This document shows, one piece after another, positions 16,453-49,200 of a stretch of 64,000 nt of DNA (the first letter of the stretch is position 1; each line of letters opens with the position of its first letter). Position numbers and translations under genes: made by a program. The DNA comes from Azolla caroliniana (taxonomy: Eukaryota; Plantae; Polypodiophyta), in NCBI GenBank assembly GCA_043228905.1, contig JBHGNT010000006.1, positions 20,832,001 to 20,896,000 on the forward strand, read 5' to 3'. The notes under the pieces are model-generated. The model made no database searches. It had not been told where the DNA came from and saw only the letters and a list, made by a program, of their open reading frames with translations.

Positions 16453-19400
16453 TGTCGAGGTATTCCTCGCGGATGCGTGGAATGAGGCGGGACCTCGGGG
16501 GTCTTGTACCGAAGAGCAAGAGAGAAAGGAGAAGGGAAGGGACCCACTACGTGCGAGCGTAGATCCACACGGACACGACCCTTCGACACAAAGACGCGAG
16601 CGGGAAACTGACATAGAGAGACACGAAGGTGTGTATGTATATATTAACAGAGACAAACAACAAGAAGCACGAAGTCGGTTACAACCAAACAGGCCGGCGA
16701 ACAGATGGCGATGCTTGTTCGTAAACGCTCAGAAAGAAAGGAGTAGGTTGGAGGTGCTACCGGAAGCACTCGGGCATTCCTCAGAGCAGCGCGAGCCTCC
16801 CGAAAACCTGCACAGAAAGAAGCTACGGAGTATGGAAGAGAGAGAAGCCTTCGACTGACAACCCGACAGCACTTCGTCCTCTCTGATTCCGCGCGATCCC
16901 TTCTACCTCCTCGTCTCCCCCCTTTTATAGGCAAGAAAGGAGCCGTTTCCCATTAACTTCCTACCTACCAAATCTACCTACCTAGGATCTTCTATGTACC
17001 TAATTCTCTCTTATGTACTACATAAGACGCACGTGCATGAAGAGCTGGTTCCTACGCTCCGGTGCACCGATTCCGCTTGTGGACGGTTTTCTTCACGACA
17101 TCCGCCCCCACCTAACCACGCATCCACCAGCATGCGCCAATTTGAGTTGGGACGGAGAAAACCGGTCCAGCCTTCATTCCCCGCCCGTCGGTTCTTCCTC
17201 GGTTTCGGATCGTTCGTCGTCCCGGTCCAGGTTAACCGGATCCGGCTCGTCGTCGTGACGCTTCTTGAACGCTTTGATCCGCTTCCCGGCTACCGGTATC
17301 GCCATTCTCGTGCCGTCGAGCTCCGCCAGATGGTACGTCCCGTTGTCGTTGGCGCTTTGTACCACGTAAGGCCCGAACCACCTTCTTGCGAACTTCCGTG
17401 TCGCTCGGTGCTGGTTGTCGAGGCTGCTATCGTAGACTAGCACCCAGTCACCTTCCTCGATCTTCTTTGGTCGGAGCCAGTGCGTTCGGTCGAACCGGGC
17501 TTTGTTCCTCGTCCTTGCTATCCGAAGCTTTCCCGCAGCCTGCTCCACGTCCTCCGGTCTTCGCTCGAGCTGTCGTATGCGCGCCGCCAACAGTTCCTCC
17601 CGGCTCATCTCGTCTTTCCAGTCCACGGTTGCCCATGAGGAGATCGTATGTTCCATCGGCATGATCGGCTTCTGCCCAAACATGAGCTCTGCCGGCATGA
17701 ATCCGGTTACCGAACTGTGTGTAGTTCGGTCCGCCCACAACGCGTAAGGCAACAACCGCGGCCAATTCCCGACTTGACCTCCGCATGCCCGAACTAACGC
17801 CTTGACGATCGGTCCGTGTCCGCGCTCCACCTTCCCATTCGCCTCCGGATTGTACGCAGTGGTAAGTGAGAGCTTGACTCCTAGCCGGTCGAACAGCTCC
17901 TCGGCCTCTTCGGCGTCCAACTCCCCGCGATCAGCCATGATCTTCCTGACACACCCGTACCGGCATATCACGTCCTCGATCAGGAACCGACATACGGCCG
18001 CGGTCGTTTTGTTCTGAAGGGCTCGGCCTTCCACCTGGTTCGTCAGATCTTCCCGAGCCAGGACCAAATACCGCATCTGTCCTACTCCCATCGGCATCGT
18101 CACCAGATCTACCATCCATTTGAAGTGGATGGTCGGAGGGTACGTAGGGTGAAGCTCATCCCGATGTCGGACTATGGAGTGCATCTGACAGCTCTCGCAA
18201 GTTGTCACGAACCGATGCACGTCCCGGTACAGTCTCGGCCACCAGTACTTCCCCTTTATCGTCTCGAACGTGGCCCACGTTCCACGGTGTCCAGCCCAAG
18301 GGCTGTCGTGGTAGGCTGTCAGCAGCTCCTCCTGTTCTTCCTTCATCGCCACCACCCGGAGCGGGACGCCGTTCCTCTTCTTCGGGTGCTTCCATAAGTA
18401 TCTGTCCCGTAGAAAGAATCGGTATGGTTTCTTCCGGATCCGGTTAGCCTCGTCCCTTGTCCACGACGCATCCGGCGTCATTGTCCTCAAGAAACCACCA
18501 ATCTGCAGCCACTCGCCGTCGTACTTGCTCTCGTCGAAGCCGTTAAGCGCCGGAGTGCTCGTCCCATCGGTCTTCATGTACGCTGCTTCGAAGAAGTCCA
18601 CGCCGACTTCTTCGTCCTCCGAAACCATGCCGCCCTCGTCATCAAACCTCGCCCTCGAAAGCATGTCGGCCATGGCATTGTCCTTTCCGGAAATGTGTCG
18701 TATTTCCGGGTCCAAGGACTTGATGTACGCTATCCACCTGAGCATTGGCAGGTCCGGTGTCGCGCATCCGGAAACCATGCCGAGAATCGGCAGGCAATCC
18801 GTCTCGATAATCACTTCTGTCCCGATCAGGTAGTCTTTGTCGGCCTTTACCGCCGAAACGATACTCCAGAGTTCGCGTTTAACCTGGGCGTACCCTCGCT
18901 GTCGCTCATGAGAACCTTTGCGCCGAATCGGATCGGGAACCGAATGCCATCCTCGTCTTCTTGGTTGACGACCCATCCGATCTCGGTCGGACTCTTATCC
19001 ACCGTTATGTATACCGGGGTACCCTTCTCGTAGACAACCTTCCGGAGCGCCGGTGCTACCGCGAGAGCTTCCTTCAGCTTCCGGACCGACTCCGTGTGCT
19101 TGTCTCGCCACTCGAATTTTCGCCCCTTTTTCAGCAACCCGTATAGCGGCTCCACAACGTGGGCGTAATGCGGGATCCATATGTGGTAGAACGCGCATGG
19201 CCCCAGGATCCTCCGAACTTCCGTAACCGAGCTACAGTCGGTCTTCATCGCGGAGATGGCTTCTACCTTTGTCGGAGACGGCTTCCGGCCATATGGTCCA
19301 CATAGGTGTCCGACCACCAGGATTTCTGATTGCCTGAAGGCCGATTTCTCCCCGAAGAAGGTGAGCCTCGCATCCTCCTGCCTTTGTAGCACCCTCTCGC

Positions 19401-21536: not shown

Positions 21537-21587
<51 letters not shown>

Positions 21588-24559: not shown

Positions 24560-27119
24560 AATGTATTATGTAAACAATACTCAAATTTGGAGTAGCATAT
24601 ATACATACATAAATACATACACATGCATGCATCCATATATACCTACATTCAAACATTACATCCATGAATATGTATATACGTACATTACACCCATTTATAC
24701 ATGCATATTGACTAAACATAAATATATGTACAAATATATATGACCATATGTAAATATGTACATACACGTACATACATGCATTACATACTACATACATCTT
24801 AGAATCGGCCATATATATTGACATACATATATACATAATACATACATAAAAATTACATATTATATATATATATATATACACGTTTTTACAATTTACAAAG
24901 ATATTTTATATATTACATATTACACACATATATTATTATACGCACAATTTTATGCAAATGCAAATATACAAACCAAACAGAAAAAAATAAATTACATATT
25001 ATATATATACATTCCATACATACAATACAATACAATATGTACATACATACACACACAAACATAACACACATCACATATGAATACCACATACATGCATATA
25101 TACCTACATTCATATATCACAACACATCACACATGCATATATACCTACATTCAAACATTACATCCATGAATATGTATATACATATATTACACCCATTTAT
25201 ACGTGCATATTGACTAAACATAAATATATGTACAAATATATATTACCATATGTAAATATGTACATACACATACATACATGCATTACATACTACATACATA
25301 TTAGAATCAACCATATATATTGAAAGAAAGAAAGAAATATATATTAACGTCTTCTAAGACCAAATTTGACCCATGAGACAATTGGTTTACAACAAAATTG
25401 GGGTATTTACCCATTCATTGAAAGTAAAAACATACATATGTATTATGTATATATGTATGTATTGACATACATATATACATAATACATGCAATAAAATTAC
25501 ATATTACATATATACATACACAAATGCATATATACATACAAAACACAAAAATTAAATTACATATTATATATTATATATGTACACATCACATACATATTAA
25601 TACCTAAGATTACATATTATATGTATACAAATCTTAATATTTACAATTTACAAACAAGTTACATATATTACATATATGTATATTATGTATATACACGTGC
25701 ACACACACATAAATAATTTAGATATTACATAGCATATAATCCATACCTATTACACAATATACAAATTTACACATACATAAATTACATATATACATACATA
25801 TATTCCACATATGTACATACATATTCCACATATCACCATATATATAGATTATATTGGACCATACAAACCACAATACTTACATACACACACAAACACACTA
25901 GATATATGTATATTTACACATACATTGGATATATACATGCATATTACAAACATACATCCATATATGAGCCATATACATACTAAACATGAAAATATCCCAA
26001 AAATATACATACATAAATACATTACATATATACACATTCATACATTTACATACATATGACCACATACACACATACACATACATACATTGGATATATACAT
26101 ACATATTATACACATATTACAAACACATTCATACTCATTGAATGATGTATATTGATATATACATATATGCATACACATACATATATTACATATGTACATA
26201 CATGTTCCACATATCACCATATATATATGTACATATGCCTGCAATGTTATAAGTTTTACAAATAGACATCCATACACATAAATACATTACATACACATGG
26301 ATACATACATTACATATGTACATATATATCATCACCAACTACAATAAATACATATATACATACACATAAATAAATATTACNNNNNNNNNNNNNNNNNNNN
26401 NNNNNNNNNNNNNNNNNNNNNNNNNNNNNNNNNNNNNNNNNNNNNNNNNNNNNNNNNNNNNNNNNNNNNNNNNNNNNNNNACATAAAACATTTACAGGTA
26501 TGTAAAAGAAATACACACACGGACACAACACATACATACATATGCACATATATAGAATATATACTCCCACACCCATACATATATACACATGCAATGCAAT
26601 ACATACATATGCACATATATAGAACACACACACAACACATTCATACAAACACATGCAATATAATACATACATATGCACATGTATAGAACATATACTCACT
26701 CACTCACTCACACACACACACACACATATACATATATACACATGCAATACAATACATACATATGCACATATATATAACACACACAAACAACACATACATA
26801 CACACATGCAATACAATACATACATATGCACATGTATAGAACATATACTCTCTCTCTCACACACACACACATAACACATACACATATACATATACACACA
26901 TTCAATACAATACATACATACACACATTCCATACATACAATACATACATATGCACGTATATATAACACACACAAACAACACATACATACACACACATGCA
27001 ATACAATACATGCATATGCACATGTATAGAGCATATACTCACACACACATCTAACACATACATACATGCATACACACATTCCATACATACAATACAATAC
27101 AATACATACATATGCACAT

Positions 27120-27160
<41 letters not shown>

Positions 27161-27520
27161 CTAACACATACATACATGCATACACACATTCCATACATAC
27201 AATATAATACATACATATGCACATGTATATAACATTCACACACACATTCCATACATACAATACAATACATACGTATGCACATGTATAGAACATTCACACA
27301 CACATTCCATACATACACTACAATACATACATATGCACATGTATAGAACATTCACAAACACACACACATTACATACATACAACACATGCATTACAATACA
27401 ATATGTAAATACATACACATGCAATTCAATGAATACAATACAATATGTACACACATACATACATAACATGGAATACAATACAATACATACATATGCGTGT
27501 GCGCACACACACACACACAC
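24560..27520. repeat. Long degenerate AC/AT low-complexity tract with internal duplications
   Basis: ATACACATAC-type sequence; ~185-bp duplication at ~24635-24820 and ~25137-25320. The ORFs here are compositional artefacts. Confidence 0.9.
26381..26480. other. Assembly gap (100 N)
   Basis: Run of 100 n; true length unknown. Confidence 0.99.
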
Positions 27521-27524
27521 ATGT

Positions 27525-31690: not shown

Positions 31691-34538
31691 AATGATTATC
31701 TCATTTTTATAGTGTGATGTCTTACATTTCAAATGGAAATATAACATATGTTGTCATTTGTTTGATCAATGTATTTGGGAAAAAATAATGTAGTGGCTTC
31801 TTATGAGTTTATCCATTAAACCAAACATAATGATAATTTGTTAGTAATTTCATTATTGATATGCATTTGGATTGTCCCATGTGTGCTCTTTGAGATATGC
31901 ATGTCAAGTTCAAGATTGGTTTTTTTGTAAATTACATTATTTTTTATCACTTCATATTCTTCATATGTTTAAATAAACTATTGACATGAACTTATATGTG
32001 GCTTATATATGATATACCTCTAATGTTTTTGGGTAATGTTTTTGAATTGTTTGTGCATTACTATATACTTTACACATTTTGTTTTCAATTTATGTGGTAC
32101 TTGATGAAGCATTTCTACAAAATTGCATATGTTGTTTAATGTTCTTTTACAAATTTGTGAGTCATCAACTATAAAGAGGGTCATAGATCCATTCTAGGTT
32201 TCTTGGATTAGAAACTATGTGTGCATGTATATTTTCTATGTAAGGGCATTAAAAATAGGTGGTTATCAAAAAATATATTGGTAATAGGGGGTATTTTTAT
32301 TAATCTTTTTTTTACAAAAGGGCCTCTAAAATAGTAAAAAACATATATATAAGGGGTTTATAAATGATGTCATGAACGCACGTGATACAACCTTCTTATA
32401 TATAGTGGAGTCCCCGAGCTACAAGGTGATCTTGAGGAACAAGTGTACATGATACAGCCCCCCGGATTTCTATCCAAACGAAACACCTCGGCGGTTTGCC
32501 GACTGAAGAAGTCATTGTACGGACTTAAGCAAGCCCCGCGAGCCTAGAACGTGAAGATTACGCAACAGCTGCGTAGGATGGGCTTTACAACGTCGAAATT
32601 AGACTCTTCGGTATTTGTTCGGAAAGGTCAACACGGACCGATTAGTCTCCTATTATATGTTGATAATTTAGTCATTGCCGGTGCTGACCTGGACAAAATC
32701 CACAGCGTGAAGTCTCAGCTTGCGGCATCGTTTGAAATGAAGGATCTCGGAGACCTTCATTACTTCCTCGGGATCGAAGTGATCCGTACCCCCGAAGGCA
32801 TATTGATCAGCCATCGTCATTACGCGTTGTCTTCAAGTTCAGGATGGCAAACAATAAGCCCATCTCGACCCCTCTGGATAGAAACGTGAAGCTTCGCCTA
32901 GATTCAGGCAAGGTGTGCGACCCAACACGGTTCTGACAAATTGTTGGGAGCCTTATCTATTTGACGATTCCTTGGCCGGATCTTAGTTATCTAATCGGCC
33001 TAATCAGTCAATTCATGTCGCAACCTACGGATATTGCGTTATGTCAGTGGCACGAAAGACATGGCGTTGCTATATCGAGCAAGCGTAGCCTTACAGTTAG
33101 TCGGCTACACGGATGCCGATTGGGTTGGAAACGCCAATGATCGTCGATTCACATCCGGATACACCTTCTCGTTAGGAAGTGCGGCGATCACGTGGAGCAG
33201 CAAGAAGCAGCCGACAGTAGCACTGTCAAGCACGGAGGCCGAATATCGAGGGGCAACTATCGCTACATGCGAAGTAATTTAGTTGAAACGGCTATTACGG
33301 GATCTGCAGGTAGAGATGTCTAATCCGACGACGATTCATTGTGACAACCTTAATAGTATCCACCTTGCAAAAAACCCCGTTTTCTACGCCCGGACCAAGC
33401 ACATTTAGGTGCCTTACCATTTTGTCCGCGAGCGGGTCCTTTCAGGAGAAGTTGAATTGGTGCATGTTTCAACTAATCGGCAGCTTGCCGACATCTTCAC
33501 AAAACCTCTTGGTCTCGACAAGTTACGACATTTCTCGGGTGCGCTTGGGTTGCGTCACCTCAACACGCCGAACTTGAGGTGGAGAGAGGAAGATCAGGGA
33601 CCAGAGCATGAAAGGAGTGGAGATAAGCATCACGGCGGAAGTGACTGAGATGCGGAGTCGAATGCAGAATTTGACTTCGAACCGGCTAAAGAAACCGAAG
33701 ACGGAAGCAAGGACTGTAAGCATAAGAAGAAGCCGAGGACAACCGAATCAGGGGGAGATAAGGCCAAGCCGAAGACGTGGTCAGAAGTTGTCAAAGGCCT
33801 AAAGACAGGAGACGAATTGGAGACAGCCAATTCGGATGAGAGCGGCATGGAATCGGAAGCATTCGATTCAATCAGAACATTCGATTCTGATACGTCGGAT
33901 CAACTTAAGGCCATGCAGAGAAAACGGCAGCGAAGGACATGCCGACACCACGACAGCAAGGGAGCTGAGATGGGCCGAACAAGCAGACAAGCCGACCGGA
34001 AGGGTCGAAGCGCGTAGAATTGAACAAGTCGAGGAGCACGAGCGAGTCATGAAGCCAGAAGGAACCGGAGCATAGATTTGAAAGAACAGACGGAACCTCA
34101 AGTTGAGCTTGAGGGGGACTGTTGAGAAACAAGCTCAACATTCGGTGCGTAATCGGGTGTGTAACCCAGTGCGTAAACTGGCTGCGTAAAAACCGTGCGC
34201 ACAATAGGCCGTAGCGGTGCGTAAACCGCGAGGCCATTAGAAAGATATTCCTCGAAGGAATAATTTTGGGAGTGAGTGTAGCGGCTCATTTATGAGCATC
34301 AAGTACTGTCAGTACTTGTGTCAACCCAATTGTCAGGGTTTGTATATAAGGTGCTCACTGAGCACGAAGTATGTACAGATTGAGTATTATTTTGAATTTA
34401 GTTTCAGTGTCTACTCTCTGTCTTTGTCTCTCCCTCTCCCTCTCCATCTCTGCGTCTTCTGTGTTTTACCAAACTGTCTTATTCCTTCGAACTGTGTACT
34501 CTGTGTTTCGCATAAGCTTCCGCACAACGTTGTCGCAT

Positions 34539-36862
34539 TGTTACGCACGTGCGTGTAAAAAGGGGCGGGACCACAGGGGGTCTCGGATGAGGAAGCTCGA
34601 GAGACAAGAAAACCGACTCCGGACACGGCCCGGAGGCAACCGAATACGAGAGAGGGGGAGAGGAAAGAAAGCATGCGCGCACGTACCGACTCTTATGCAC
34701 AGACAATTACGAGTATGTATATTACAAGGGAAAGAATACAACCCCGGCTTCGAGCCGGACCAAGGTAGGGTAGGTCACAATAGTCGTCTGTTGCCAAGCC
34801 ACCGATCGGGGAGCTCTCGGGCTTGTTGCGCCGAGCGGGGCCTTGCACAGGAGACCGAGCAGAAGCAAACCCTACTGAACATACAAGATCTTTACCAAAC
34901 AAAACCCTAAACAGACGTGAAGGAGAAGAAGAAAGCTACCAAAGAGAAACCCTAAACAAAATAAGAGTATGAGAACCTACCTAACCTTAAACTATCGATA
35001 TACCCTCTAACACAAAATGGGCAACCCCTCTACAAGGGGCACTCCCCTCCTTTTATAGAACAAGGAGAGAGATGCGTAACAATGTGGGATAAATCCCGAC
35101 TTACATGGGATTCTCTGTCCCGACTTAACTCCTATTATTCACACGTTTTTATAAGGGTGAGCGCACATGGTGCACTCCGCTGATTCTTCCGATATTCCCC
35201 GGTTTCTCACTATCGCCCGGAATCTTCACGACATCCACCCCCACCAAACCGCACATCCACCGGTACGTGCCAAGTTCGGAGAAGGGTGAGAGATTCCAGT
35301 CGGCGAGGAACCGGTCCTCCGTGGCCTGCATCCCCGCTTGCCACGTCGACACTGCCGGTTTGAATAGTCGGCTCTAGTTCGTCCTTCGCGCTTGCCTCTC
35401 CATAGGCTCGTTCGACTCGTCAGTAGGTCGTCGACCATGATCCCGTAGCACGTGTGCCCCATTGTTGCCCCTCTTTTGGACCTTATGCACGCTTCTCGTT
35501 CCTTCACCAGGTGTCCCTGACAGCTTACCAGAAGATCACCCTTGCCGCGTCCTGGCCCGCATGGCCTCCTTCGTTCTCGTAATGCCTCGGCTAGTCGGTG
35601 CCTCTGCTGTTGCCGCCTTTGTCCCCTTGCCGCCACCTTCCATTACCCTCGGTCTCACGTTGCCACATTGGCCGAACAACTGAGGTCTCTGGGCAGGTGT
35701 GAAGAATCCTTCTCGGGCCTCCGTTTTGTTGGGTCATCGACTCGTGTACCAAGCGCGTCCGATCTTTGTCTTGCCGACCCTTCCGGTCGGGCCCGTATCC
35801 GGTTCGTGGCCGCCTCGCCGGCCTCATACCTCCTTTTGCTCTGCTTTCCGTCGTCCGATCACGTTCACCTGCCTCCACCGTCCCTTCCTATAGGACTCAT
35901 GCCGGCACTCGGGCCGACCGCCGGATCGGTGTGAGGATCTTCGTGGGACCTCCCCTTTTGCCTTCAGTTGCCCGCCTTGCCGCCGCCACCGTTCCTTACT
36001 CTAGGTCTCACGCTGGCTCTCGGGCCGACCGTCGGAGTGTCCCAAACCGGTGTGTGTAAGGTTGTGGCAGCACTGCTTGCCACTTTCCTTTCGTCGTAGT
36101 CCGGACCTCCGCGTCGGCCTCTTTGGTTGGTCACGTTCACCTGCCGCCACCGATCTCTCCTATAGGACTCACGTCGGCTCTCGGGCCGACCGTTGGATCG
36201 GTGTGAGGATCTCCACAAGACCTCCCCTTTTGCTGTCTTCGGTTGCCCGCCTTGCCGCCGCCACCATTCCTTACTCTAGATCTCACGCCGGCTCTCGGGC
36301 CGACCGCCGGAGTGTCTAGAAATGGTGTGTGTAAGGTCACAGCTGCACCGCTTGCCGTATCCCCAACCTCCATGTCGGCCTCTTCTGTTGGTCACCTTCA
36401 CTTGCCGCCACCGATCTCTCCTATAGGACTCATGCCGGCTCTCGGGCCAACCGCCAGATCGGTGTGAGGATCTCCGTAGACCGCCCATCCGCAGTCCTTT
36501 GCCTTCGTCCCCTCACCGCCACCGTTCGTCACTCTAGGTCTCACGTCGGCTCTCGGGCCGACCGCAGGAGTCTCTAGATCCGGTGTGAAGGATCCTCCTC
36601 GGGCTTGTTGTTTCTCTGACCCTTATCCCGGGTCTTCCTTCTTCGCAAGTCGAGAGGGTGGCTCGCACCACACCCTCTCCCATGGTACCGACATACCGCG
36701 TTCCCAAGCTCTCTCTCTTCTTACGGATCGGTTATCCAGAAATCCGTTCTGCCCCATTCTCGTCCAGGTCTGCCCGTCATTCTTTGGATTGTTGGGTCCC
36801 GTTCTCCTGTCGCCATCGATCTCTCCTATAGGACTCACGCCAGCACTCGGGCCGACAGCCGG
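34539..36862 (-). mobile_element. Ty3/gypsy family C: 3' LTR (34539-35233), PPT and long non-coding 3' region
   Basis: TGTTACG..CACGACA LTR followed by TCCACCCCCACC (minus-strand PPT) and the pre-PPT motif shared with families A and B. Confidence 0.75.
35850..36862. repeat. GC-rich higher-order tandem repeat (~265-bp dimers of ~130-bp subunits)
   Basis: CCTATAGGACTCA near 35887, 36159, 36420 and 36826 alternates with CTCTAG(G/A)TCTCACG near 36001, 36274 and 36531. Each is followed by CTCGGGCC(G/A)AC. Confidence 0.8.
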
Positions 36863-37534
36863 TGTCGCGAAAATATGACGAGGATACGTGAACGTTGAGG
36901 CAAGACCCCGGGGCCTTTGTCTAGAGGATATCAAATTCGTGTATTTATATACTAAGAATTAACCGAAATGAGAAAGATTAACAAATTTCATTAATAAAAG
37001 GGAAAGAAAGATTACAATCAATCCCAAGATTGGGATTACAAAAGTTTTATCTTATGGAGATGATTAGAATAATAGATTAGAGGAAATAAGAGATTATGAT
37101 TCTTGAGTGATATGGCTTTGACAAGGAATTTTGGATTTTGAGAGATTGCTTCCGTATGGAAATTATGGTTTACTTAAGAGATAGCTTCCGTAAGGAAGAT
37201 TAGGGTTATTGGCTTCGATAAGATAAGAGAGCTCTCCCCAACAAAAGAAAAAAAAATTAGATAATATAGAGAGTCCCTCCTAGTGTAGGAAAAAAAATGG
37301 AATAAATATGGAGTTCCCCCTTGATCATAGCCTTTCCACTTTTTGTTGCATGGCCTCTACTTTTAGTTGCCTAGCTTTTTCTTTTGGTTGCATGTGACTG
37401 TCCACATGACCTTTACTTTTTCCATGCACTCCCTTCTTTAGTTGCTTGCGTCCACATGGCCTTTACTTTAGTTCTCTTCACTTTACTTTAGTTTGTTGCA
37501 TGATCCAATCTTTCGTTCGTCCGCGTCCAACCTC

Positions 37535-37930
37535 GTCCGGTAGCCGGTTCCATTTTGCTTGCCGGCCGGTTCCAATTTGCTTGCCGGTTCTGGTTCTGGT
37601 TTTGCTTGCCGGCCTGTTCCAGTTTTGCCTGACGGCCGGTTCCGGTTTTGCTTGCCGGCCGGTTCCGGTTTTGCTTACCAGCCGGTTTTCGGTTTGCTTG
37701 CCAGTTCCGATTCCGGTTTTGCTTACCGGCCGGTTTGCATACCCGTTCCGGTTCCGGTTTTGCTTGCCGGCCGGTTCCGATTTTGCATACCGGCCGGTTT
37801 CCGGATTGCATACCGGCCAGTTTCCGGATTTGCTTACCAGCCCGTTTCCGAATTTGCTTACCGGACCCGTTTTCCGGATTTGCTTACTGGACCTGTTTTC
37901 CGGATTTGCTTACTGACCGGTTTCCGGTTT
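37535..37930. repeat. Tandem CCGG-rich ~20-27-bp repeats inside LTR B
   Basis: Repeated CCGGTTCCGGTTTTGCTTG / CCGGATTTGCTTAC units. Confidence 0.85.
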
Positions 37931-38797
37931 TAAGGAATTTGGCCACCATCATCCATCAAGACAAAGTGGCCAAAGTGCTCTTAGCACAAATGAAAAATGA
38001 GGGAGCTCAAGGTGTTTATATAGCCAGGGCCTTAACTTTCCTATCTATGTGGGATAGTTCTAATTTCCCTATCTAATCAAACTTTATTTTCTCATAACTT
38101 GGTATGTATTTCTCCATTTTGTATATAGTAAAATACATTTTGAAGCTCTTGAGTATATCCATCTTTCTATAGTAAGCTACTAATCTAATCTATAATAATT
38201 ATTTCATTATTTTTTTACATAGTGTGTGAAGATTCACACGACATTCGCCCCCACCAAACCTGCACATCCACCGGTATGTGCCAATTTTGGCGAGGATTCA
38301 TTTTTGTGTACTATACTTTTTCATCGATGCTTAAGATTGAATCGTCAAAAGCTTCGAATCCAATTTCTATTCTATCTCTTCTCTTGAAGATCTTGATTCT
38401 TTTACCGGCAATTGGCAAGGCAAGTGGTGTACCATCCAGTTCTACTAAATGATATGTTGCATTATCTTCCACTTTCTTCACCACATATGGCCCAAACCAT
38501 CGTTGTGAGAATTTTCGAGCCGTACTATGTTGGTTATCTAGGCTACTGTCATAGACTAGCACCCAATCTCCTTCAACGATTTTCCTCGGTCGAAGTTGAT
38601 GTCGTTTATCGAAGTCTTTCTTGTTCTTTAGCCTTGCATTCTTTAGCCGCGCTTTAGCCACCTCTACATCTTCCAAATTCCGCTCTAATTGTCGAATCAT
38701 CAATGCTAGAAGATCTTCTCTACTTATCTCATCTTGCCATGGCAATGCAAACCATGAAATAATACTTTGTTCTACCGGCATTATTGGCTTTTGTCCG

Positions 38798-38836
38798 TGA
38801 AAACGTAAGTGTTTGCGGAAGCGTAAAACAGGGAAC

Positions 38837-38887
<51 letters not shown>

Positions 38888-40558
38888 CGAGAGAGAGAGA
38901 GACAGGGAGAGCAAAACACAATTTCAAAATTATATTAAGACACTTTTTACACACTGTGCTAAGTAGCACTATTTATACAAGTCTTCTTAGGACTGACAGA
39001 AGTACCATGTACTTCAATGCTCACACGAGCATCTGACACTTACTACGAAACTATAGATACCTAGTAGTCTATCCTATTCTAGGCTTCCGATTAGACTGCC
39101 GGTTACGTATTGCACCCGGCCTCCACTGCTTGTCGGTTCGGTTGCTCACCGTCATACCGATCCGTTTCGCCCGATCCGTCTCGCTTACCAGCTCTGGCTT
39201 ATTCAGCCGATCCGGCTCCGGTTGAGCTTGTCGCTCAACACTCCCCCTCAAGCTCAACCTGAGGTGGGGTCGTAGTGTCGACCTCTGTGGCAGTCGGTTC
39301 TTTCAACCGACTCCTCCTGGCGTCACTCCGCCTTGCTCGCGCTCCTCGTCCGGTCCGGTCCCATTTGCCACGACCCCTTTGGTTCTGCGCGCCTCGACCC
39401 TCTCGGTCGGCATGTCTGCTCAATAGGCCCATCTCAGCACTCACGTTGCTGTGACTCCGGCGCTTGCCGATCCGTCGGTTCTCCCACGATGGCATCGACT
39501 TCCGCTGTGCCCGTGTCCCCTTGGCCTTCAGTCGATCCGACTCATCCGGATCCATCTGTTGATCCGAGTCAACTGTCTCCAACTCGTTCCAGCTCTTGTC
39601 CGAATCGGTACACTCCGATTCGACTTCCGGCTTCAGGCCTCTCACCACATCAGACCACTTCCGAGTCTTGGCCTTCTCCATGCTTCCCTCGGCTTCTTCA
39701 GCCGGTGAACCGAAATCGAATTCTTCATTCGACTCCGCCTCATGGTCAACACCGGTAGAGACTTTGCCCTTGCTTCTCCCCCTCAAGTGCGGCATGTCGA
39801 GATGCTGAATACCAAGCATGTCGGTAAAGTGCTGCAACTTGTCCGATCCGAGCGGTTTGGTGAAGATGTCGGCAACTTGCCGATCCGTATGAACATACCG
39901 TAGGTCAACTTCACCGCTCAGGACCCGCTCACGCACGAAGTGGTAGTGCACCTCCATGTGCTTTGTGCGAGCATGGAACACAAGGTTCCTGGCGAGCTGC
40001 AGGCTGCTCATGTTATCGCAGTAAATCGGGATCGGGGTCGGCACCTCGATCCGCAAGTCTCGTAGCAGTCGCCGAAGCCAGATGGCTTCACAAGTGGCAA
40101 CGGTAGTGGAGAACATGTATCCGGAAGTGGAGAACATGTATTCGGAAGTGGAGCGGCGATCAGACACATCGCCGGCCCAGTCAGCATCTGTGTAACCGAC
40201 AAGCTCTTCGGGTATACCTCGCCAGTATAGTAGACCCCGGTCTTTAGTGCCGCTGACATACCGTAATATTCGTTGCGCGCACTGAAGGTGCTCCACGGTC
40301 GGCTTCTACATGAACTAACTTACCATGCCGACCGGATAGCTGATGTCGGGTTGGGTGATGGTTAAGTAGATCAGGCTTCCGACAACCTGTCAGAACCGTT
40401 TCTCATTGTAGGCCGGTCCGGAGTTGGGACGGAGCTTCTGGTTCCGGTCCAGGGGTGTGGAGACAGGTCGGCAATCCGTCATGCCGAACTTATACAGCAT
40501 ATTCAACACGTAATGTCGTTGTGAGAGCAATATGCCGTCGGGGGTTCGGATCACTTCG
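38798..40558 (-). mobile_element. 3' part of a Ty1/copia element (same family as Y) inserted in the integrase of B
   Basis: LTR 38798-39240 homologous to 42958-43368; PPT; RNase H and extension ORF 39235-40296; RT end to 40558. Confidence 0.9.
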
Positions 40559-41219: not shown

Positions 41220-43286
41220 CTTCGTTGATTCTTCGACTTCCATCTGAGCAGGTTGGATCGATCCACCGGGCTTCATGTTTGTTTCACCAATCTCTTTTCT
41301 TGGGATAGGTTGGGGTGGCCCTTCTTTCCCTCCGTTCCTCGTGTTAGGTTGCTTTGATGTGCCATCTTCTTCACCGGTTCTCTTCCTCTTCTCTTCGACA
41401 AGGGCTTCATAGGTGTCACACACAACCTCCGCAAAGCTTGTGTTTTCGTCGATTGGATCTGACCATCCGGTTGCTCGTCGCACGTTTCGGTCAGCAAGTT
41501 TTAGATCCTCCGAATTAATTTTGCCTTTTTCTTCGCACTCGAAGACCATTGGCCAAAACCCAGCTCCTGGCTTGATCATTTTAAGATTCTCTTTTCCAAC
41601 TCGTATCCCAGCCGAAGCGGCATAGTGCATAGCCTCCACATGCCTTGCATCTTCTTCTTCTACAATCTTTTTCAGCCCACCTCTTCCGAAGCTCACTCGT
41701 AGTGGCTTCCGGGTCTCGCTTGAGTGAATCATGTTGCCGTCCAAATAGACGACATTCTTGTGGATCGCATCTTGCAAGTCCGCACATTCCCTTCGTGAGT
41801 GTTCAAAGCTATCGCACCACACACATCTATACGCTTCTTTTCCCTTGGGCCCGCGCCGACCTAAGTTGGCTAGCGATACCGCTTCAAACTTCTTGGAGAG
41901 CTCTTCGATTATAGACTCCTCCATTGCTTTCTTGTCGAAATTGTTGATCGGCTTACTAGGCTCAATCATCGTAGGTGCCTTCTTCCACAATTGTGGATTC
42001 TCGACCTCAGCTTCCTCTTGCCATTGTCGCCGCGTATCAAAACGGTTGCAAGCCTTCTTCACCGCCGCCCAGTCCGCTACCAAACCATTTGGTTGTGTTT
42101 CATCCTCCAAGAAACTACCCAATTCTCGCCGATCTTTCGCATCCATTGCCTTTAGGAATAGTAAGACTTTATCTCCGTCGAGAACTCGTTGCTCAACACT
42201 CGGAAGTTGGTTGTACTTCTGGTCGAATTCGGCATAAATTCCCGATGCACACAAATTCTTCCCTTTCTTCTCGATCCAATTCATTAACGTATGCCGAGTC
42301 ATCCGCGATGCGTCTTCAAGCATGTATTCAGTGAGAAGAGCCCTTTCGAACTCCGCCCAAGTTGCATGCTCGTTTTGGATCTCCATCACGCGCTCACGGA
42401 TCCCGGGTTCTACCACACGCTTAAAGCTTGAAATTTGTTTTCGATCATGGACATCTCTTCGTTGCATCTCATTCCGGTAGGTAGCAAGGAAATTTGTGAT
42501 GTTCTTCCCACCGAATCTTCCAACTGTCTCCACAGTTCGGTCAACAGCTTTGTCGACTAAAGCCTCACGATCTCTCTCTTTCAGCATGAATTCGACGACG
42601 GACACCATGCCTTTCGTCAATTCTTCTCCTTGAGTTCCACTTGTCGAAGCCATCTTCGTACTTGATATCCTCCTACTGCCTCGTTTCACGTCGGGTTCAA
42701 CAAAGATGTCGTGAAAATACGACGAGGATACGTGAACGTTGAGGCAAGACCCCGGGGCCTTTGTCTAGAGGATATCAAATTCGTGTATTTATATACTAAG
42801 AATTAACCGAAATGAGAAAGATTAACAAATTTCATTAATAAAAGGGAAAGAAAGATTACAATCAATCCCAAGATTGGGATTACAAAAGTTTTATCTTATG
42901 GAGATGATTAGAATAATAGATTAGAGGAAATAAGAGATTATGATTCTTGAGTGATATTGTTGAGCGGCAAGCTCAACCGGAGCCGGATCGGCTGAATAAG
43001 CCAGCGCCGGTAAGCGAGACGAATCGGGCGAAACGGATCGGTATGACGGTGAGCAACCGAACTAGCAAGCAGTGGAGGCCGGGTGCAATCCGTAACCGGC
43101 AGTCCAATCGGAAGCCTAGAATAGGATAGACTACTAGGTATCTATAGTCTCGTAGTAAGTGTTAGATGCTCGTGTGAGCATTGAAGTACATGGTACTTCT
43201 GTCAGTCCCAAGAGGACTTGTATAAATAGTGCTACTTAGCACAGTGTGTAAGTAGAGTCTTGATATAATTTTGAAATTACGTTCTG

Positions 43287-43329
<43 letters not shown>

Positions 43330-43463
43330 GTTCTCTGGTTTACGCTTCCGCAAACACTCACGTTTACATGGTATCAGAGCGCGAGGGATGAGAACCTCTG
43401 ATGCAGACATTTAACTCTTGAGAAGAAAACCCTAACAGGTCGAAAACAGACACAGTAGAAGAC

Positions 43464-46274
43464 ATGGATAGAGGAATGGTTACGTCGCTCCCGGTGGAGA
43501 AGCTCGACAGGACCAACTACGCATCCTGGTCTTACAAGATGCACCAGTACCTGCTTGGACACGGGTACTGGATTTATGTCGAAGGAGCGAATGATGCGGC
43601 ACCCGACTCGGCACACAAGGACTTCCCGGTATGGGAACAGGCGGCAAGCAGGGTGATGTACTGCTTCGCGTCTAGTGTCGGCGATCAGCTGCTCAGCCAC
43701 ATCCGTGACGCCAAGACACCGAAGGATGCTTGGGGGAACCTGAAAAAGGTTTTCGCCGCAAGCACCACTGCCCGGAAGCTACAACTCAGACAGGAGTTGA
43801 GCAATGTTCGACAGAAGAACATGTCCGTGGCAGACTACATGGGCCGGATAAAGGAGATCTGCGACTCGCTCGCCTCTATCAATGTTACCGTAGAGGAAGA
43901 CGAGATGGTCCAGGTATGTCTCGGAGGCCTGGCGTCCAAGTTCGGAGCGTTCCGGACTGCAGTGTGCACAAGGGAGAATACCCCCTCATTCTTCGACTTA
44001 CAGTCGATGCTCCTTGTAGAGGAGAACCACGCCGGTGCATCTACCAGTGCATCCCCGGACAGCCGGATGTTGTACACGGGAACGGATCGGCACTATGGGC
44101 GTGGTGGAAGAGGTGGGTCGGCACGCAATGGAGGCGGCCGGCAAGAGCAGGAACGGAGGCACTGTGAGTGTGCCGACAGCAATTCCGGGACTTCCACAAG
44201 CAGGGGGAGTCAAGGCAGTGCCAGAGGCCGGCAAGACAAATCCGCTACGGAATGCTGGTACTGTGGGAAAAAAGGCCACAGGGAAAGCGAGTGTTGGAGA
44301 AAGCGTGTCGATTCGGACAAATCCGGATCCGGCAAGACCGGTAAGGATGGCCGGCAAAACTCGCACTACGCAAACGGATCAGGAGGATCCGGAATCGGAA
44401 ATGCCGGTAAGGGGCCAGCCTTGGTGATGAATCACAAGGCAAACTCAATGAAGAAGACCACTTCCAAAATGGAGGAAGTGTGGTATGTTGATTCCGGCGC
44501 GTCGACCCACATGACGAGCCACAAAGAGTGGTTCTCCTTTCTGGAGAAACCGGATCAACCAGGAGTAGTCGAAACCGGAGACGACACTCCACACCCAATC
44601 GTGCATGTCGGAGAAGTCCCTCTAAGCCACGTCAGACAGAAAGGGAAGCTGATGAACGTATTACACGTTCCGACGATCACGAAGAACCTGGTGTCCGTCG
44701 GTCAGATTGTCGACCAAGGGATGCAGGTGCGGTTTACGCACCTCGGGTGCTTCATTGAAGATGAGGGCGAAGTCATTGCACAAGGGCGCAGAGACGGGAG
44801 GATGTTTATCCTCAACACCAATGACATTGGCACCGCTCTGTTCGCGAAACGACAGAAGGTCGAGTCGGACATCGACCTATGGCACAAGCGGATAGGCCAC
44901 ATCAACTACCGAAGGCTTCAAGACCTGCAAACGAAACAAGTCGTTTTCGGTTTGCCAAAGTTCAGCGGCCGGAGAGCCGAAATTTGTGAAGCCTGCCAAC
45001 TTGGGAAGCAACACCGGCTTCCATTCCCCACCGAACGGAACCGGAGCCGTAACAAGCTCAATCTCATCCATTCGGATGTGTGGGGACCGGCACAAAGTGT
45101 AAGCCTTGGCGGGAGCCGGTACTTCGTCTCCTTCATCGACGACTATACTCGACATACTTGGATCTACCTCATTGAGCGGAAGAGCGAAGTCTTCGACTGT
45201 TTCCGGAGCCTCCAGAAGATGGTGGAACGGGAATCGGAGAGGAAGATCAAATGCCTTCGGTCGGATGGCGGAAAGGAATATTTTTCCGGCCAATTCACTA
45301 GTTATCTACAGCAGAAGGGAATTCGGCGAGAGTTCAGCTGCAGATACACACCGGAGATAAACGGTGTGGCCGAAAGGAAGAACCGGACACTCGTCGAGGC
45401 GGCAAGGACAATTCTGGAGGAGAAGAGCATGCCCCGGTTCTACTGGGCAGAGGCGGTCCAGACGGCTGTCTACATACAAAACCGCATTGGTGACAAGGTG
45501 TCAGCTCATGAGCTGTATTTCGGGCGCAAGCCGAACTTAAGACACCTTCGGATATTCGGCAGCCTAGTGTATGTGCATGTGTCGGATCAGAAGCGGAGGA
45601 AGCTAGATACAAAATCGGAAAAATGCATCCTAGTCGGCTATGCTCAAGAGCAAAAGGGGTATAAGTGCTATAACCCCCGGACGAAGGAAGCCCGAGTTAG
45701 CTGTGATGTCGAGTTCGATGAATCGGCATCTTGGTACTCCGTACCGACTCCGACTTCCGATCCCGACCGAATGCCGGAAGATCAGGCCAGTGAGCCTGAA
45801 TCAACCTTGGAAGAGGATGATGAAGCCGAGACTCAAGATGAGAGTCCGGAATCGTTGCGGTTGAGTGGACCGAACGAGCGACTGAGTCGGTTGGACCAGT
45901 CAGATGAAGAGACGGCAAGTGGTGGAGACTCTGCCGTGCTCTCCCCGCGCAAGGAACCAAGGAAACGGTTCACGCGCAAAGAGAAGGGGAAGAGGAAGAT
46001 GCCGGAATTCGAAACCGGCAACGATGAGTCGGATCAGTGCGTATCCGACTCCGGAAAGGAGAAAGGCAGATCTTCGGCAACGAAGACCGAACTGGCCAAG
46101 AAGGGCCTCAAATCAGGTGGCGGTGCGTTGCCCCGATCAACCCGTCAGAAGGATCCCGTCGTGCGGTACGGGTACAATGAATACGTGGCGCATCATTATG
46201 CGTACATGACTAAGGTGACAGAAGTGCGCGAGCCGGAGAGCTACGCAGAAGCAGCAAAGGACGCAAATTGGCGT
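43464..46274 (+). CDS. Copia gag-protease-integrase polyprotein (open up to the A2 insertion)
   Basis: CWYCGKKGHRESEC, WYVDSGASTH, LWHKRIGH...CEACQLGK, LIHSDVWGP, LRSDGGKEY, NGVAERKNRT. Confidence 0.9.
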
Positions 46275-49200
46275 TGTCGAGGTTTTCCTCGTGGATGCGT
46301 GGAATGAGGCGGGACCTCGGGGGTCCTATACCGAAGAGCAAGAGAGAAAGGAGAAGAGACCCACTACGTGCGAGAGTAGATTCACAGGGACACGGCCCTT
46401 CGACACAAAGACGCGAGTGGGACAGCGACACAGAGAGACACGAACGTATGTATGTATTACCAAAGACAAACAACACAACACGGAGTCGGTTACAACCAAG
46501 CAGGCCGGCGAACAGATGCCGATACCTGTTCGTAAACGCACAAAAAGGAAGGAGTAGGTTGGAGGTGCTGCCGGAAGCACTTGGGCATTCCTCAGAGCAG
46601 CGCGAGCCTCCCGAAACCTGCACAGAAGGAAGCTATGGCGTTTGCGAACCAAAGAGAGAGAGAGAGAGAGAGAAGCCTTCGCCCACGAACCGACAGCACT
46701 TCGTCCTCCACTCTCTGCGATCCCCCTTTACCCCTCCTCGTCTCCCTCCTTTTTTAGGCAAGGAAGGGGCCGTTTCCCCTTTACTTCCTACCTACCGAGT
46801 CTGCCTGCCTAGGATCTCCTATGTACAACATAAGGCGTACGTGCATAAGGAGCCGGTTCCTACGCTCCGGTGCACCGATTCCTCTTGTGGACGGTTTTCT
46901 TCACGACATCCGCCCCCACCTAACCGCGCATCCACCGGCATGCGCCAAATTGAGTTGGGACGGACAAAACCGGTCCAGCCTTTATTCCCCGCCCGTCGGT
47001 TCTTCTTCGGTTTCGGATCGTTCGTCGTCCCGGTCCAGGTTATCCGGATCTGGCTCGTCGTCGTGATGCTTCTTGAACGCTTTGATCCGCTTCCCAGCTA
47101 TTGGTATCGCCATTCTCGTGCCGTCGAGTTCCGCCAGATGGTACGTCCGGTTGTCGTTGGCGCTTTGTACCACGTAAGGCACGAACCACCTTCTTGCGAA
47201 CTTCCGTGTCGCTCGGTGCTGGTTGTCGAGGTTGTTGTTGTAGACTAGCACCCACTCGCCTTCCTCGATCTTCTTCGGTCAGAGCCGGTGCGTCCGGTCA
47301 AACCGGGCTTTGTTCCTCGTCCTGGCCACCCGAAGCCTTTCCGCAGCCTGCTCCACGTCCTCCGATCTTCGCTCGAGCTGTCGTATGCGCGCCATCAACA
47401 GTTCCTCCTTGCTCATCTCGTCTCTCCAGTCCACGGTTGCCCATGAGGAGATCGTACGTTCCATCGGCATGATCGGCTCTGCCGGCATGAATCCGGTTAC
47501 CGAATTGTGCGTAGTTCGGTCAACCCACAACGCGTAAGGCAGCAGCCGCGGCCAGTTCCCGACTTGGCCCCCGCATGCCCAAACTAACGCCTTGACGATC
47601 AGTCTGTGTCCGCGCTCCACCTTCCCATTCGCCTCCGGATTGTACGCAGTGGTAAGCGAGAGCTTGACTCCTAGCCGGTCGAACAGCTCCTCGGCCTCTT
47701 CGGCGTCCAACTCCCCGCGGTCAGCCACGATCTTCTCGATGCACCTGTACCGGCATATCACATCCTCAATCAGGAACCGACATACGGCCGCGGTCGTTTT
47801 GTTCTGAAGGGCTCGGCCTTCCACCTGGTTCGTCAGATCTTCCCGAGCCAGGACCAGATACCGCATCTATCCTACGCCCATTGGCATCGTCACCAGATCT
47901 ACCATCCATTTGAAGTGGACGGTCGGAGGGTACGTAGGGTGAAGCTCGTCCCGATGCCAAACTATGGAGTGCATCTAGCAGCTCTCGCAAGTTGTCACGA
48001 ACCGATGCACGTCCCGGTATAGTCCCGGCCACCAGTACTTCCCCTTTATCTTCTCGAACGTGGCCCACGTTCCACGGTGACCAGCCCAAGGGCTGTCGTG
48101 GTAAGCCGTCAGTAGCTCCTCCTGTTCTTCCTTCATCGCCACCACCCGGAGCAGGACGTCGTTCCTCTTCTTCGGGTGCTTCCACAAGTATTCGTCCCGG
48201 AGAAAGAATCGGTAAGCTTTCTTCCGGATCCGGTTGGCCTCGTCCTTCGTCCATGGCACATCCGGCGTCATTGTCCTCAAAAATCCACCGATCTGGAGCC
48301 ACTCGCCGTCGTACTTGCTCTCATCGAAGTCGTTAAGTGCCGGAGTACTCGTCCCATCGGTCGTCACGTACGCCGCCTCGAAGAAGTCCACACCGACTTC
48401 TTCGTCCTCCAAAACCATGCCGCCCTCGTCATCAAACCTCGCCCTCGAAAGCATGTCAGCCATGGCGTTGTCCTTTCCAGAAATGTGCCGTATTTCCAGG
48501 TCCAGGGACTTGATGTACGCTATCCACCTGAGCATCGCCAGGTCCGGTGTCGCGCATCCGGAAACCATGCCGAGAATTGGCAGGCAATCCATCTCGATAA
48601 TCACTTCCGTCCCGATCAGGTAGTCTTTGTTGGCCTTTACTGCCGAAACGATACCCCAGAGTTCGCGTTTAACCTGGGCGTACCCTCGCTATCGTTCACT
48701 GAGGACCTTCGCGCCGAATCGGATCGAGAACCGAATGTCGTCCCCGTCTTCTTGGTTGACGACCCATCCGATCCCGGTCGGACTCGTATCCACTGTTATG
48801 TATACCGGAGTACCCTTCTCGTAGACAGCGTTCTGGAGCGCCAGTGCTGCCGCAAGAGCTCCCTTCAGCTTCCGGACCGACTCCGTGTGCTCGTCTCGCC
48901 ACTCGAAATTTCGCACTTTCTTCAGCAACCCATATAGTGGCTCCGCAACGTGGGCGTAATGCGGGATCCATATGTGGTAGAATGCGCATGCCCCCAGGAA
49001 CCTCCGAACTTCCGTAATCAAGCTACAGTCGGTCTTCATCGCGGAGATGGCTTCTACCTTTGCCGGAGACGGCTTCCGGCCATATGGTCCACATAGGTGT
49101 CCGACCACCAAGATTTCCGATTGCCCGAAGGCCGATTTCTCCCCGGAGAAGGTGAGCCTCGCATCCTCTAGCCTTTGTAGCACTTTCTCGCAGTCGTCGA

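What the first reader, a model, noticed from the sequence alone, without database searches (positions are those of the whole stretch)
17101..46950. Covarying hairpin just upstream of the PPT in three gypsy families with unrelated LTRs
Seen on the element sense (minus) strand: B GCACAT-accggtgg-ATGTGC (38262-38281); A2 GCGCAT-gccggtgg-ATGCGC (46926-46945; a compensatory A-U to G-C change); C GCACGT-accggtgg-ATGTGC (35251-35270; G.U wobble); A1 GCGCAT-gctggtgg-ATGCGT (17118-17137; G.U wobble). Each is preceded by TTG and followed by GGTT(T/A)GGTGGGG and the LTR. All changes preserve pairing on the sense RNA only, and the loop contains a self-complementary CCGG in three of the four copies. Inference: a conserved cis-element for dimerisation (kissing loop), packaging or plus-strand priming.
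Basis: partly seen in the sequence, partly recalled or inferred. Interest (0 to 1): 0.7.

Follow-up and report, generated by a model that had tools for sequence, protein, structure and literature searches.

The report
Hairpin abutting moss retrotransposon primer site
A family of jumping genes, likely from a moss, keeps a small, strictly paired hairpin right against the site where second-strand DNA copying is expected to start, which likely helps the copying enzyme pick out an unusually purine-poor primer.

Summary
The four hairpins are at the stated places. All belong to one lineage, Phygy-type Ty3/gypsy elements (NCGN target duplication, tRNA-Trp primer site). The stem is conserved. Genome-wide there are three Watson-Crick stem types (1593, 730 and 542 copies), and both-side changes recur on an integrase tree. 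Of 80 loci fetched by integrase alone, 70 reach the site, and 68 of these keep at least 5 of 6 pairs. First, the G.U wobbles are CpG decay: G.U and A.C copies are equally common (68:74 and 56:59), so the strand is undetermined. Second, the CCGG palindrome is lost in three lineages, which argues against a kissing loop. New here: the hairpin sits 0-1 nt from an atypical G/U-rich PPT. A second helix starts just inside U3, paired upstream in one group and local in the other. Pol-less elements share only the PBS region and hairpin+PPT with autonomous ones at the DNA level. Best reading: an aid to plus-strand primer selection in the U-box slot (0.45); rival: a Gag-binding packaging hairpin (0.25). 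Function is untested.

The parts
17118..17137 (-). A1 apical hairpin (6-bp stem, 8-nt loop); the terminal G.U and the loop C-to-T are likely post-insertion CpG decay
17101..17117 (-). A1 G/U-rich PPT tract (17 nt up to the LTR TG)
17157..17168 (-). A1 5' arm of the predicted basal stem
17081..17091 (-). A1 U3 arm of the predicted basal stem
16453..17100 (-). A1 3' LTR (element 22590-16453, GCGG target duplication, internal deletion relative to A2)
46926..46945 (-). A2 apical hairpin, perfect Watson-Crick stem (G-C at pair 3)
46909..46925 (-). A2 G/U-rich PPT tract
46966..46977 (-). A2 5' arm of the predicted basal stem
46888..46898 (-). A2 U3 arm of the predicted basal stem
46275..46908 (-). 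A2 3' LTR (element 53253-46275, ACGC target duplication, gag-pol with RT, RNase H, integrase)
52578..52595 (-). A2 primer binding site, complementary to the tRNA-Trp(CCA) 3' end
38262..38281 (-). B apical hairpin, perfect stem (A-U at pair 3)
38244..38261 (-). B one-nt spacer plus PPT tract (18 nt up to the LTR TG)
38286..38295 (-). B pyrimidine-rich strand predicted to pair with the tract (weakly supported as a family trait)
38222..38242 (-). B local hairpin at the start of U3 (replaces the basal stem in this clade)
36863..38243 (-). B 3' LTR, followed by CCGG; B is inserted in the internal region of C
42685..42702 (-). B primer binding site (tRNA-Trp type, one mismatch)
35251..35270 (-). C apical hairpin; the G.U at pair 5 is likely a decayed G-C (542 genomic copies have G-C)
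35234..35250 (-). C G/U-rich PPT tract
35286..35314 (-). C 5' arm of the long predicted basal stem
35199..35229 (-). C U3 arm of the long predicted basal stem
34531..35233 (-). C 3' LTR, followed by ACGT; C belongs to a pol-less (non-autonomous) group

Best explanation
A 20-nt hairpin sits 0-1 nt upstream of a 17-nt G/U-rich tract at the 3' LTR of Phygy-type elements, keeps Watson-Crick pairing through repeated both-side changes, and likely helps define the plus-strand primer. Shown: the sequence, its position, the covariation, its retention by pol-less elements, the low purine content of the tract, and covarying or shuffle-significant pairing at the start of U3. Inferred: the tract is the plus-strand primer (from its position only). 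Inferred mechanism: the tract lacks the A-run and U-run that protect a retroviral PPT. Reverse transcriptase would stall at the stem after copying the tract, leaving RNase H near the tract/U3 junction. Alternatively or in addition, the copied hairpin would refold in minus-strand DNA and strip RNA 5' of the tract, setting the primer's other end. The U3 helix would bracket the tract from the other side. Which strand acts is undetermined.
For: Position is locked. The stem-to-LTR distance is 17 or 18 nt in 104 of 106 genomic and 69 of 70 metagenomic copies. The distance from the integrase stop codon varies from 2 to 81 nt in 39 of 42 representatives, and the other 3 read into or through the hairpin. 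The tract is atypical: 12-13 purines of 17 in 55 of 56 representatives, longest purine run 5 in 52 of 56. HIV PPT protection depends on A- and U-tracts (PMC5766924, passages). The same slot holds the U-box/T-box needed for plus-strand priming in retroviruses and Ty1 and the TCTT of Tf1-like elements (PMC10085805, passages). Structure-induced pausing has been proposed for the HIV/SIV PPT helix (PMC4439019, passages). Pairing is strict: no G.U is fixed on any internal branch, so the stem works on either strand. Second helix: cognate upstream/U3 duplexes beat non-cognate ones in 38 of 43 17-nt-offset representatives, and 5 of 6 basal pairs change on both sides. In the B-like group, U3 folds locally with z<-2 in 9 of 11, against 1 of 45 in the rest. 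Pol-less copies share the last ~44 nt with autonomous A-type copies.
Against: There is no experiment and no mapped cDNA end. The spacing does not match a known ruler exactly. The junction would lie 15-16 nt from the stem base if two bases precede the TG (recalled rule), while Ty3 RT spans about 13 bp (PMC5371799, passages) and HIV RT about 18 (recalled). A pause site needs no particular sequence, yet the G before the stem and several loop bases are nearly invariant, which points to specific recognition. A C.A mismatch at pair 2 is shared by two pairs of sister copies (support 99 and 94) and by 2 of 41 high-coverage or young proxies. Pairs 2, 3 and 5 are CpG sites, so some double changes (L104, L116, L036/L037) may be double decay. 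In 14 of 56 representatives the apical stem has probability under 0.5 in the sense fold with flanks. RNAalifold on the long alignment chose another register and did not find the basal stem. Whole-region folding z-scores of the window copies are weak (-0.6 to -2.6).
Confidence: 0.45

Rival explanations
1. The hairpin is a 3'-located packaging signal that binds the zinc knuckle of Gag through exposed loop guanines and the bulged G.
For: Only about 25 nt separate the PBS from the gag ATG, so there is little room for a 5' psi. The common loops contain C-GGAG-G or C-GGUG-G, and HIV-1 NC binds the GGAG loop of its psi hairpin (PMC7599994, passages). Gag has a CCHC knuckle in 6 of 7 autonomous copies scanned. 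Pol-less elements keep the hairpin. Unpaired Gs are nearly invariant.
Against: Packaging would not need a 0-1 nt spacer to the tract. The predicted fold favours two inner C-G pairs and a triloop (about 0.5) over a C-G closed tetraloop (0.02). AGAG and GAAG variants exist. In HIV, replacing the GGAG loop did not impair packaging.
Confidence: 0.25
2. The loop palindrome forms a kissing complex that starts genome dimerisation.
For: The CCGG core is present in 35 of 41 high-coverage or young proxies. Self-duplex energies are -7 to -10 kcal/mol for CCGG loops. Ty1 dimerises through kissing loops, though at its 5' end (PMC5454406, abstract).
Against: CCAG loops (self-duplex about -1 kcal/mol) occur on an internal branch (L124, L125, L142; two of them at 30-32x coverage) and in L157 and L178. 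Positions 1 and 6 vary independently, and A.A ends are common, including in a copy with 99.9% LTR identity. CC is predicted to pair inside the loop.
Confidence: 0.1
3. The whole stem-loop is an RNA element for transcript stability, export or 3'-end handling, like the export elements of some retroviruses that lie just upstream of the PPT (recalled).
For: A long fold-back encloses the hairpin and tract in A and C, and is longest in pol-less families (down to -48 kcal/mol).
Against: The long stem is absent in the B-like group (cognate better in 7 of 13 18-nt-offset representatives) while the hairpin stays. G.U pairs are rare in it (12 against 610 WC under scoring that penalises mismatches). No expression data.
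Confidence: 0.1
4. There is no function for the structure: it is a conserved primary sequence whose symmetry is kept by template switching in a quasi-palindrome or by paired CpG decay.
For: Arms are almost purely Watson-Crick. The varying pairs are CpG sites. Only about 7 independent both-side events are seen.
Against: A-U to G-C gains at pair 3 (three times) and pair 5 run against CpG decay. Hairpin identity averages 83%, against 32% for the adjacent 20 nt. It is intact at 58-59% integrase identity.
Confidence: 0.07

Closest known systems
Phygy lineage of non-chromovirus Ty3/gypsy elements (Neumann et al. 2019, PMC6317226; passages and supplement row seen)
   Same: 4-bp NCGN target duplication, tRNA-Trp PBS, short internal region filled by gag-pol, no chromodomain hit.
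   Different: No hairpin next to the PPT in the passages seen. The complete A copies here are about 7 kb, below the listed 7.7-10 kb. Pol-less relatives are not mentioned in what I read.
U-box/T-box upstream of retroviral and Ty1 PPTs; TCTT of Tf1-like elements (as summarised in PMC10085805, passages; U-tract role in PMC5766924, passages)
   Same: A conserved element immediately 5' of the PPT, tied to plus-strand priming.
   Different: Those are short pyrimidine runs read as sequence. This one is a 6-bp covarying hairpin beside a tract with no A-run.
[quoted passage not shown] 2015, PMC4439019, passages)
   Same: The G-rich 3' end of the tract is in a helix, with short helices nearby. RT pausing was proposed as a first step of primer processing.
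   Different: There it lies in coding sequence and rests on SHAPE data. Here it is mostly non-coding, rests on covariation only, and the conserved core is a hairpin abutting the tract's 5' end.
HIV-1 psi hairpin GGAG loop (PMC7599994, passages) and Ty1 kissing loops (PMC5454406, abstract)
   Same: Small hairpin with a G-rich loop; the common loop is self-complementary.
   Different: Both lie in the 5' leader. Here the hairpin is at the 3' end and the palindrome is dispensable in some lineages.
Conserved Hairpin Site of fungal GalEa copia elements (PMC5445492, passages)
   Same: Lineage-wide hairpin beside an LTR at a priming position, known only from comparison.
   Different: It is in copia, at the 5' LTR in place of the PBS, with a variable loop.

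Membership tests
Phygy (REXdb) | 4-bp target site duplication NCGN | tested here: met
   A1 GCGG and A2 ACGC on both sides; NCGN follows the B and C 3' LTRs; matching NCGN flanks in several fetched complete copies; defined
Phygy (REXdb) | PBS complementary to tRNA-Trp | tested here: met
   The PBS matches the 3' end of host tRNA-Trp(CCA) genes; 81% of Phygy elements use it
Phygy (REXdb) | Ty3/gypsy order RT-RH-IN without chromodomain | tested here: met
   Pfam RVT_1, RT_RNaseH, Integrase_H2C2, rve in that order; no chromo hit among 34 ORFs
Phygy (REXdb) | Placement in the Phygy clade of RT/RH/INT trees | not testable with these tools
   No REXdb reference sequences on hand; nearest named relatives are Riccia and Ceratopteris proteins
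Phygy (REXdb) | Length 7.7-10 kb | tested here: not met
   A2 is 6979 bp and internal regions are 5.5-5.7 kb in most complete autonomous copies; the paper calls size a minor trait
Covarying structured cis-element | Both-side changes that recur independently | tested here: met
   Pair 3 four times, pair 5 once, pair 4 once, pair 2 once on an internal branch, on a 129-tip integrase tree; genomic 2x2 tables with odds ratios 231 and 120 (copies, not events)
Covarying structured cis-element | Acts as sense RNA (G.U tolerated, A.C not) | tested here: inconclusive
   G.U equals A.C genome-wide; basal stem 12 G.U vs 20 A.C, p=0.29 after composition control
Kissing-loop dimer initiation site | Self-complementary loop kept in all replicating lineages | tested here: not met
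   CCAG loops in three lineages; positions 1 and 6 uncoupled
Kissing-loop dimer initiation site | RNA dimer formation | not testable with these tools
   Needs gels or probing
Classical polypurine tract | Uninterrupted purine run with an A-rich 5' part | tested here: not met
   Longest purine run 5 in 52 of 56 representatives
Classical polypurine tract | Primes plus-strand DNA | not testable with these tools
   Inferred from the position directly before the 3' LTR only
Psi-type NC-binding hairpin | Binds Gag/NC and confers packaging | not testable with these tools
   Only the loop resemblance and a CCHC knuckle are seen
Ty3-type bipartite PBS or tRNA-derived element | Complementarity or identity to the primer tRNA | tested here: not met
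   Duplex with tRNA-Trp 1-57 has mean z -0.3; D-arm likeness p about 0.5 or higher
Rfam RNA families | Match at gathering score | tested here: not met
   No match over B or C in 34000-39000; A copies not scanned

The most novel reading that the evidence does not exclude
Phygy elements choose their plus-strand primer by structure rather than by a purine code. A G/U-rich tract is bracketed by a fixed upstream hairpin and a U3 helix that evolved in two different ways, and this acts as a ruler for reverse transcriptase and RNase H, possibly folding in minus-strand DNA.
Probability: 0.3. Interest if true: 0.75.

Novelty: new variant of a known kind. Interest (0 to 1): 0.5.

Why it matters
How a PPT is spared and cut precisely is only partly understood, and a role for RNA structure has been proposed for HIV/SIV but is hard to isolate there because the site is coding. 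Here the element is a 40-nt, mostly non-coding module with natural compensatory variants, loop variants and two alternative U3 helices, so the question becomes testable with short oligonucleotides. If it is instead a 3' packaging hairpin, it would be a defined psi for a plant gypsy lineage. The module also marks pol-less Phygy elements that protein searches miss. The case is also a caution: G.U 'wobbles' in genomic copies of methylated retrotransposons can be CpG decay.

Tried and rejected
Sense-strand specificity from G.U pairs: rejected. A minus-strand bias in the basal stem: A.C exceeded G.U with loose scoring (37 vs 12) but not with strict scoring and a composition control (20 vs 12, p=0.29). 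Better z-scores on the minus strand may only reflect G-rich shuffles, so I do not count them. Pairing of the tract with the upstream pyrimidine strand is mostly compositional (mean z -0.4, z<-2 in 2 of 56; cognate tract preferred in 36 of 56), so it is kept as weak. tRNA-Trp D-arm mimicry and tRNA pairing: chance level. The alternative register from RNAalifold (loop RCC with the tract's first GGU) rests on near-invariant columns. A GG-GG-GG-GG motif is present in 55 of 56 tracts, but quadruplex formation was not tested. IMG/VR gave no match by pattern or by integrase. No RNA holder was listed, so expression is open. A divergent integrase query in the own genome returned two already-seen families: 28 of 30 loci reach the tract, one of which lacks the 5' arm. 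The covariance model found no further strong site type in 54 sources; weak hits are listed under noticed. Literature searches listed no paper describing this hairpin. The library lacks most subscription journals, and I searched only the text-held supplements of PMC6317226, for one term.
Full report
OBSERVATION. The four hairpins are present as written: A1 17137-17118, C 35270-35251, B 38281-38262, A2 46945-46926, all on the minus strand. B has one extra A before the tract. They are the only four such tracts in the window and the only window hits of a covariance model built later.

THE ELEMENTS. A1 (22590-16453) and A2 (53253-46275) are one family, about 90% identical, with RT, RNase H and integrase in gypsy order. 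Their flanks are duplicated GCGG and ACGC. The A2 and B primer sites match the 3' end of host tRNA-Trp genes. NCGN duplications and a tRNA-Trp PBS are the listed traits of the Phygy lineage (PMC6317226, passages and one supplement row). The host is likely a moss; this is inferred from Phygy, and the nearest named proteins are from Riccia and Ceratopteris. A and B integrase tails are 66% identical. B is inserted in C. No integrase lies in the sequence held upstream of C (1500 nt) or of its LTR relatives (600-1500 nt; one hit came from a neighbouring element). Of 20 fetched suspects, 14 show a 5' gag piece and none shows pol directly before the tract. Two have 99.7-100% identical LTRs, so pol-less elements have moved recently. 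The three 'families' are branches of one lineage.

HOW WIDESPREAD. Tract plus LTR start occurs 4132 times in the 523-Mb genome, and the control 0 times. I examined 106 genomic copies picked by the tract, not the stem. I also examined 80 metagenome loci picked by integrase alone (63-95% identity). Of these, 70 reach the site; 52 have a perfect Watson-Crick stem and 68 at least 5 of 6 pairs. One more is degenerate, and nine end or are interrupted earlier. All but one of the 80 contigs have accessions from one narrow range, and one resembles the window's B family closely, so host breadth is unknown. Two contigs with 58-59% integrase identity carry the exact hairpin. Among cluster representatives the hairpin is 83% identical on average, and the adjacent 20 nt 32%.

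COVARIATION. Three stem types dominate in the 17-nt context: GCGCAT/ATGCGC 1593, GCACAT/ATGTGC 730, GCACGT/ACGTGC 542. On a 129-tip integrase tree, both sides change together four times at pair 3 (two internal branches, L174, L178), once at pair 4 (L157), and at pair 2 (L036/L037, L104, L116). Pair 5 changes at the base of one clade; the parsimony output splits this event because of one decayed copy. In 50 distinct rows, 98.5% of cells pair and 22 cells change on both sides, against 5.6 in shuffles; that control ignores relatedness. All 5 copies with LTR identity of 97.8% or more have perfect stems, against 3 of 9 at 85-96%. Against strictness: a C.A at pair 2 is shared by two sister pairs and by 2 of 41 high-coverage or young proxies.

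THE WOBBLES ARE DECAY. At pair 3, 68 copies have G.U and 74 have A.C; at pair 5, 56 and 59 (p=0.67 and 0.85). Both are CpG sites. On the tree, all 17 changes to G.U are on terminal branches, beside 16 to mismatches. So the G.U pairs in window copies A1 and C say nothing about strand. The stem is as stable on the opposite strand.

THE LOOP. The consensus is R-C-C-R-G-W-G-G. Position 1 and position 6 each change seven times on internal branches. CCAG replaces CCGG in the clade L124/L125/L142 and in L157 and L178, several at 10-32x coverage, and this removes self-pairing. The conserved CC and GG are predicted to pair inside the loop (about 0.5), but no both-side change supports this.

THE LARGER FOLD. 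In A and C the hairpin tops a longer fold-back. The base pairs an upstream arm with U3 positions of about +8 to +25. Cognate arms pair better than arms from other clusters in 38 of 43 representatives with the 17-nt offset, but in only 7 of 13 with the 18-nt offset. Representatives share ancestry, so the number of independent events is smaller. On a plain MAFFT alignment, 79.8% of cells pair and 5 of 6 pairs change on both sides; a one-column slide scores nearly as well, because some families are shifted by one. RNAalifold did not recover this helix. The B-like group instead folds the start of U3 on itself (z<-2 in 9 of 11, against 1 of 45). Pairing of the tract itself with the pyrimidine-rich strand is weakly supported.

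CIS REQUIREMENT. I compared 11 pol-less with 7 autonomous internal regions by BLASTN. The last ~44 nt (hairpin and tract) hit in all 11, and the PBS region in 10 of 11. Other hits are a few short gag pieces, a shared copia insertion and a nested element.

MECHANISM. The stem ends 17-18 nt before the LTR in 173 of 176 copies, while the gap to the stop codon is variable. The tract has 12-13 purines of 17 and a longest run of 5 in most representatives. In HIV, PPT protection rests on A- and U-tracts (PMC5766924, passages). The slot just 5' of the PPT holds priming elements in retroviruses, Ty1 and Tf1-like elements (PMC10085805, passages). Structure-induced pausing has been suggested for the HIV/SIV PPT (PMC4439019, passages). 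I therefore rank a primer-selection aid first (0.45), by pausing on RNA or refolding in minus-strand DNA. The weak points are that the spacing (15-16 nt to a junction placed by a recalled two-base rule) falls between Ty3's ~13 bp (PMC5371799, passages) and HIV's ~18 (recalled), and that invariant unpaired Gs suggest protein binding. A Gag-binding packaging hairpin is second (0.25). Kissing loop 0.1, transcript-level role 0.1, no function 0.07.

KNOWN OR NEW. It works like the known elements 5' of a PPT and the conserved PPT helices of lentiviruses, but it is neither a U-box nor, by test, a kissing site or a tRNA mimic. Rfam has no match over B or C. Eight literature searches listed no description. 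I also read passages of PMC5445492, PMC7466625 and PMC11963269 and the abstract of PMC5454406. Earlier notes of this scan show no look-alike sequence. Two unchecked notes on another lineage in this genome report a tRNA-like hairpin in the PPT slot, which prompted the tRNA likeness test.

VERDICT. New variant of a known kind; interest 0.5.

Noticed in passing
L182 5657-5696, L184 5363-5402, L181 4958-4997 (483 nt after the PBS, in gag): One pol-less subfamily carries a second copy of the 17-nt tract inside its gag frame (exact in L182 and L184, one change in L181 and L199), after a different short hairpin containing CCGGAG or CCGGAA. It could be an internal priming site or chance codon use; no such tract was found in the other pol-less copies checked.
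   Followed up: partly
L190 1570-5832 (minus): A young pol-less element has one 1421-codon frame over its whole internal region: gag N-terminus, then G/E/A/R-rich sequence, no zinc knuckle, no Pfam hit. The frame runs through the hairpin and stops at the TAG inside the tract.
   Followed up: partly
window 35630-36881: Array of 110-290-nt-spaced repeats in the internal region of C, with small inverted repeats. A 231-nt array lies in relative L195, so these may be decayed coding repeats.
   Followed up: no
window 37410-37930: 23-nt tandem array inside the B LTR.
   Followed up: no
window 34531-55872: Deep nesting: B sits in C, copia pieces sit in B and in its 5' LTR, and A2 sits in that copia. 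All Phygy insertions read here are flanked by NCGN.
   Followed up: partly
G000 C8:17.80-17.82 Mb, C16:4.99-5.11 Mb, C5:10.11 Mb: Clusters of tRNA-Trp 3'-end matches, spaced about 1.2 kb on C8; likely tandem tRNA gene arrays.
   Followed up: no
L255, L256: Two contigs of a cyanobacterial metagenome-assembled genome carry Phygy-like integrase ends with the hairpin; likely plant contamination of the bin.
   Followed up: partly
G000 C3:15383567-15383825: Three hairpin-plus-tract copies in tandem at 113-nt spacing.
   Followed up: no
window 8698-9247 and 24600-27500: A 52-nt tandem array that also matches its own reverse complement, and a long CATA-rich low-complexity region.
   Followed up: no
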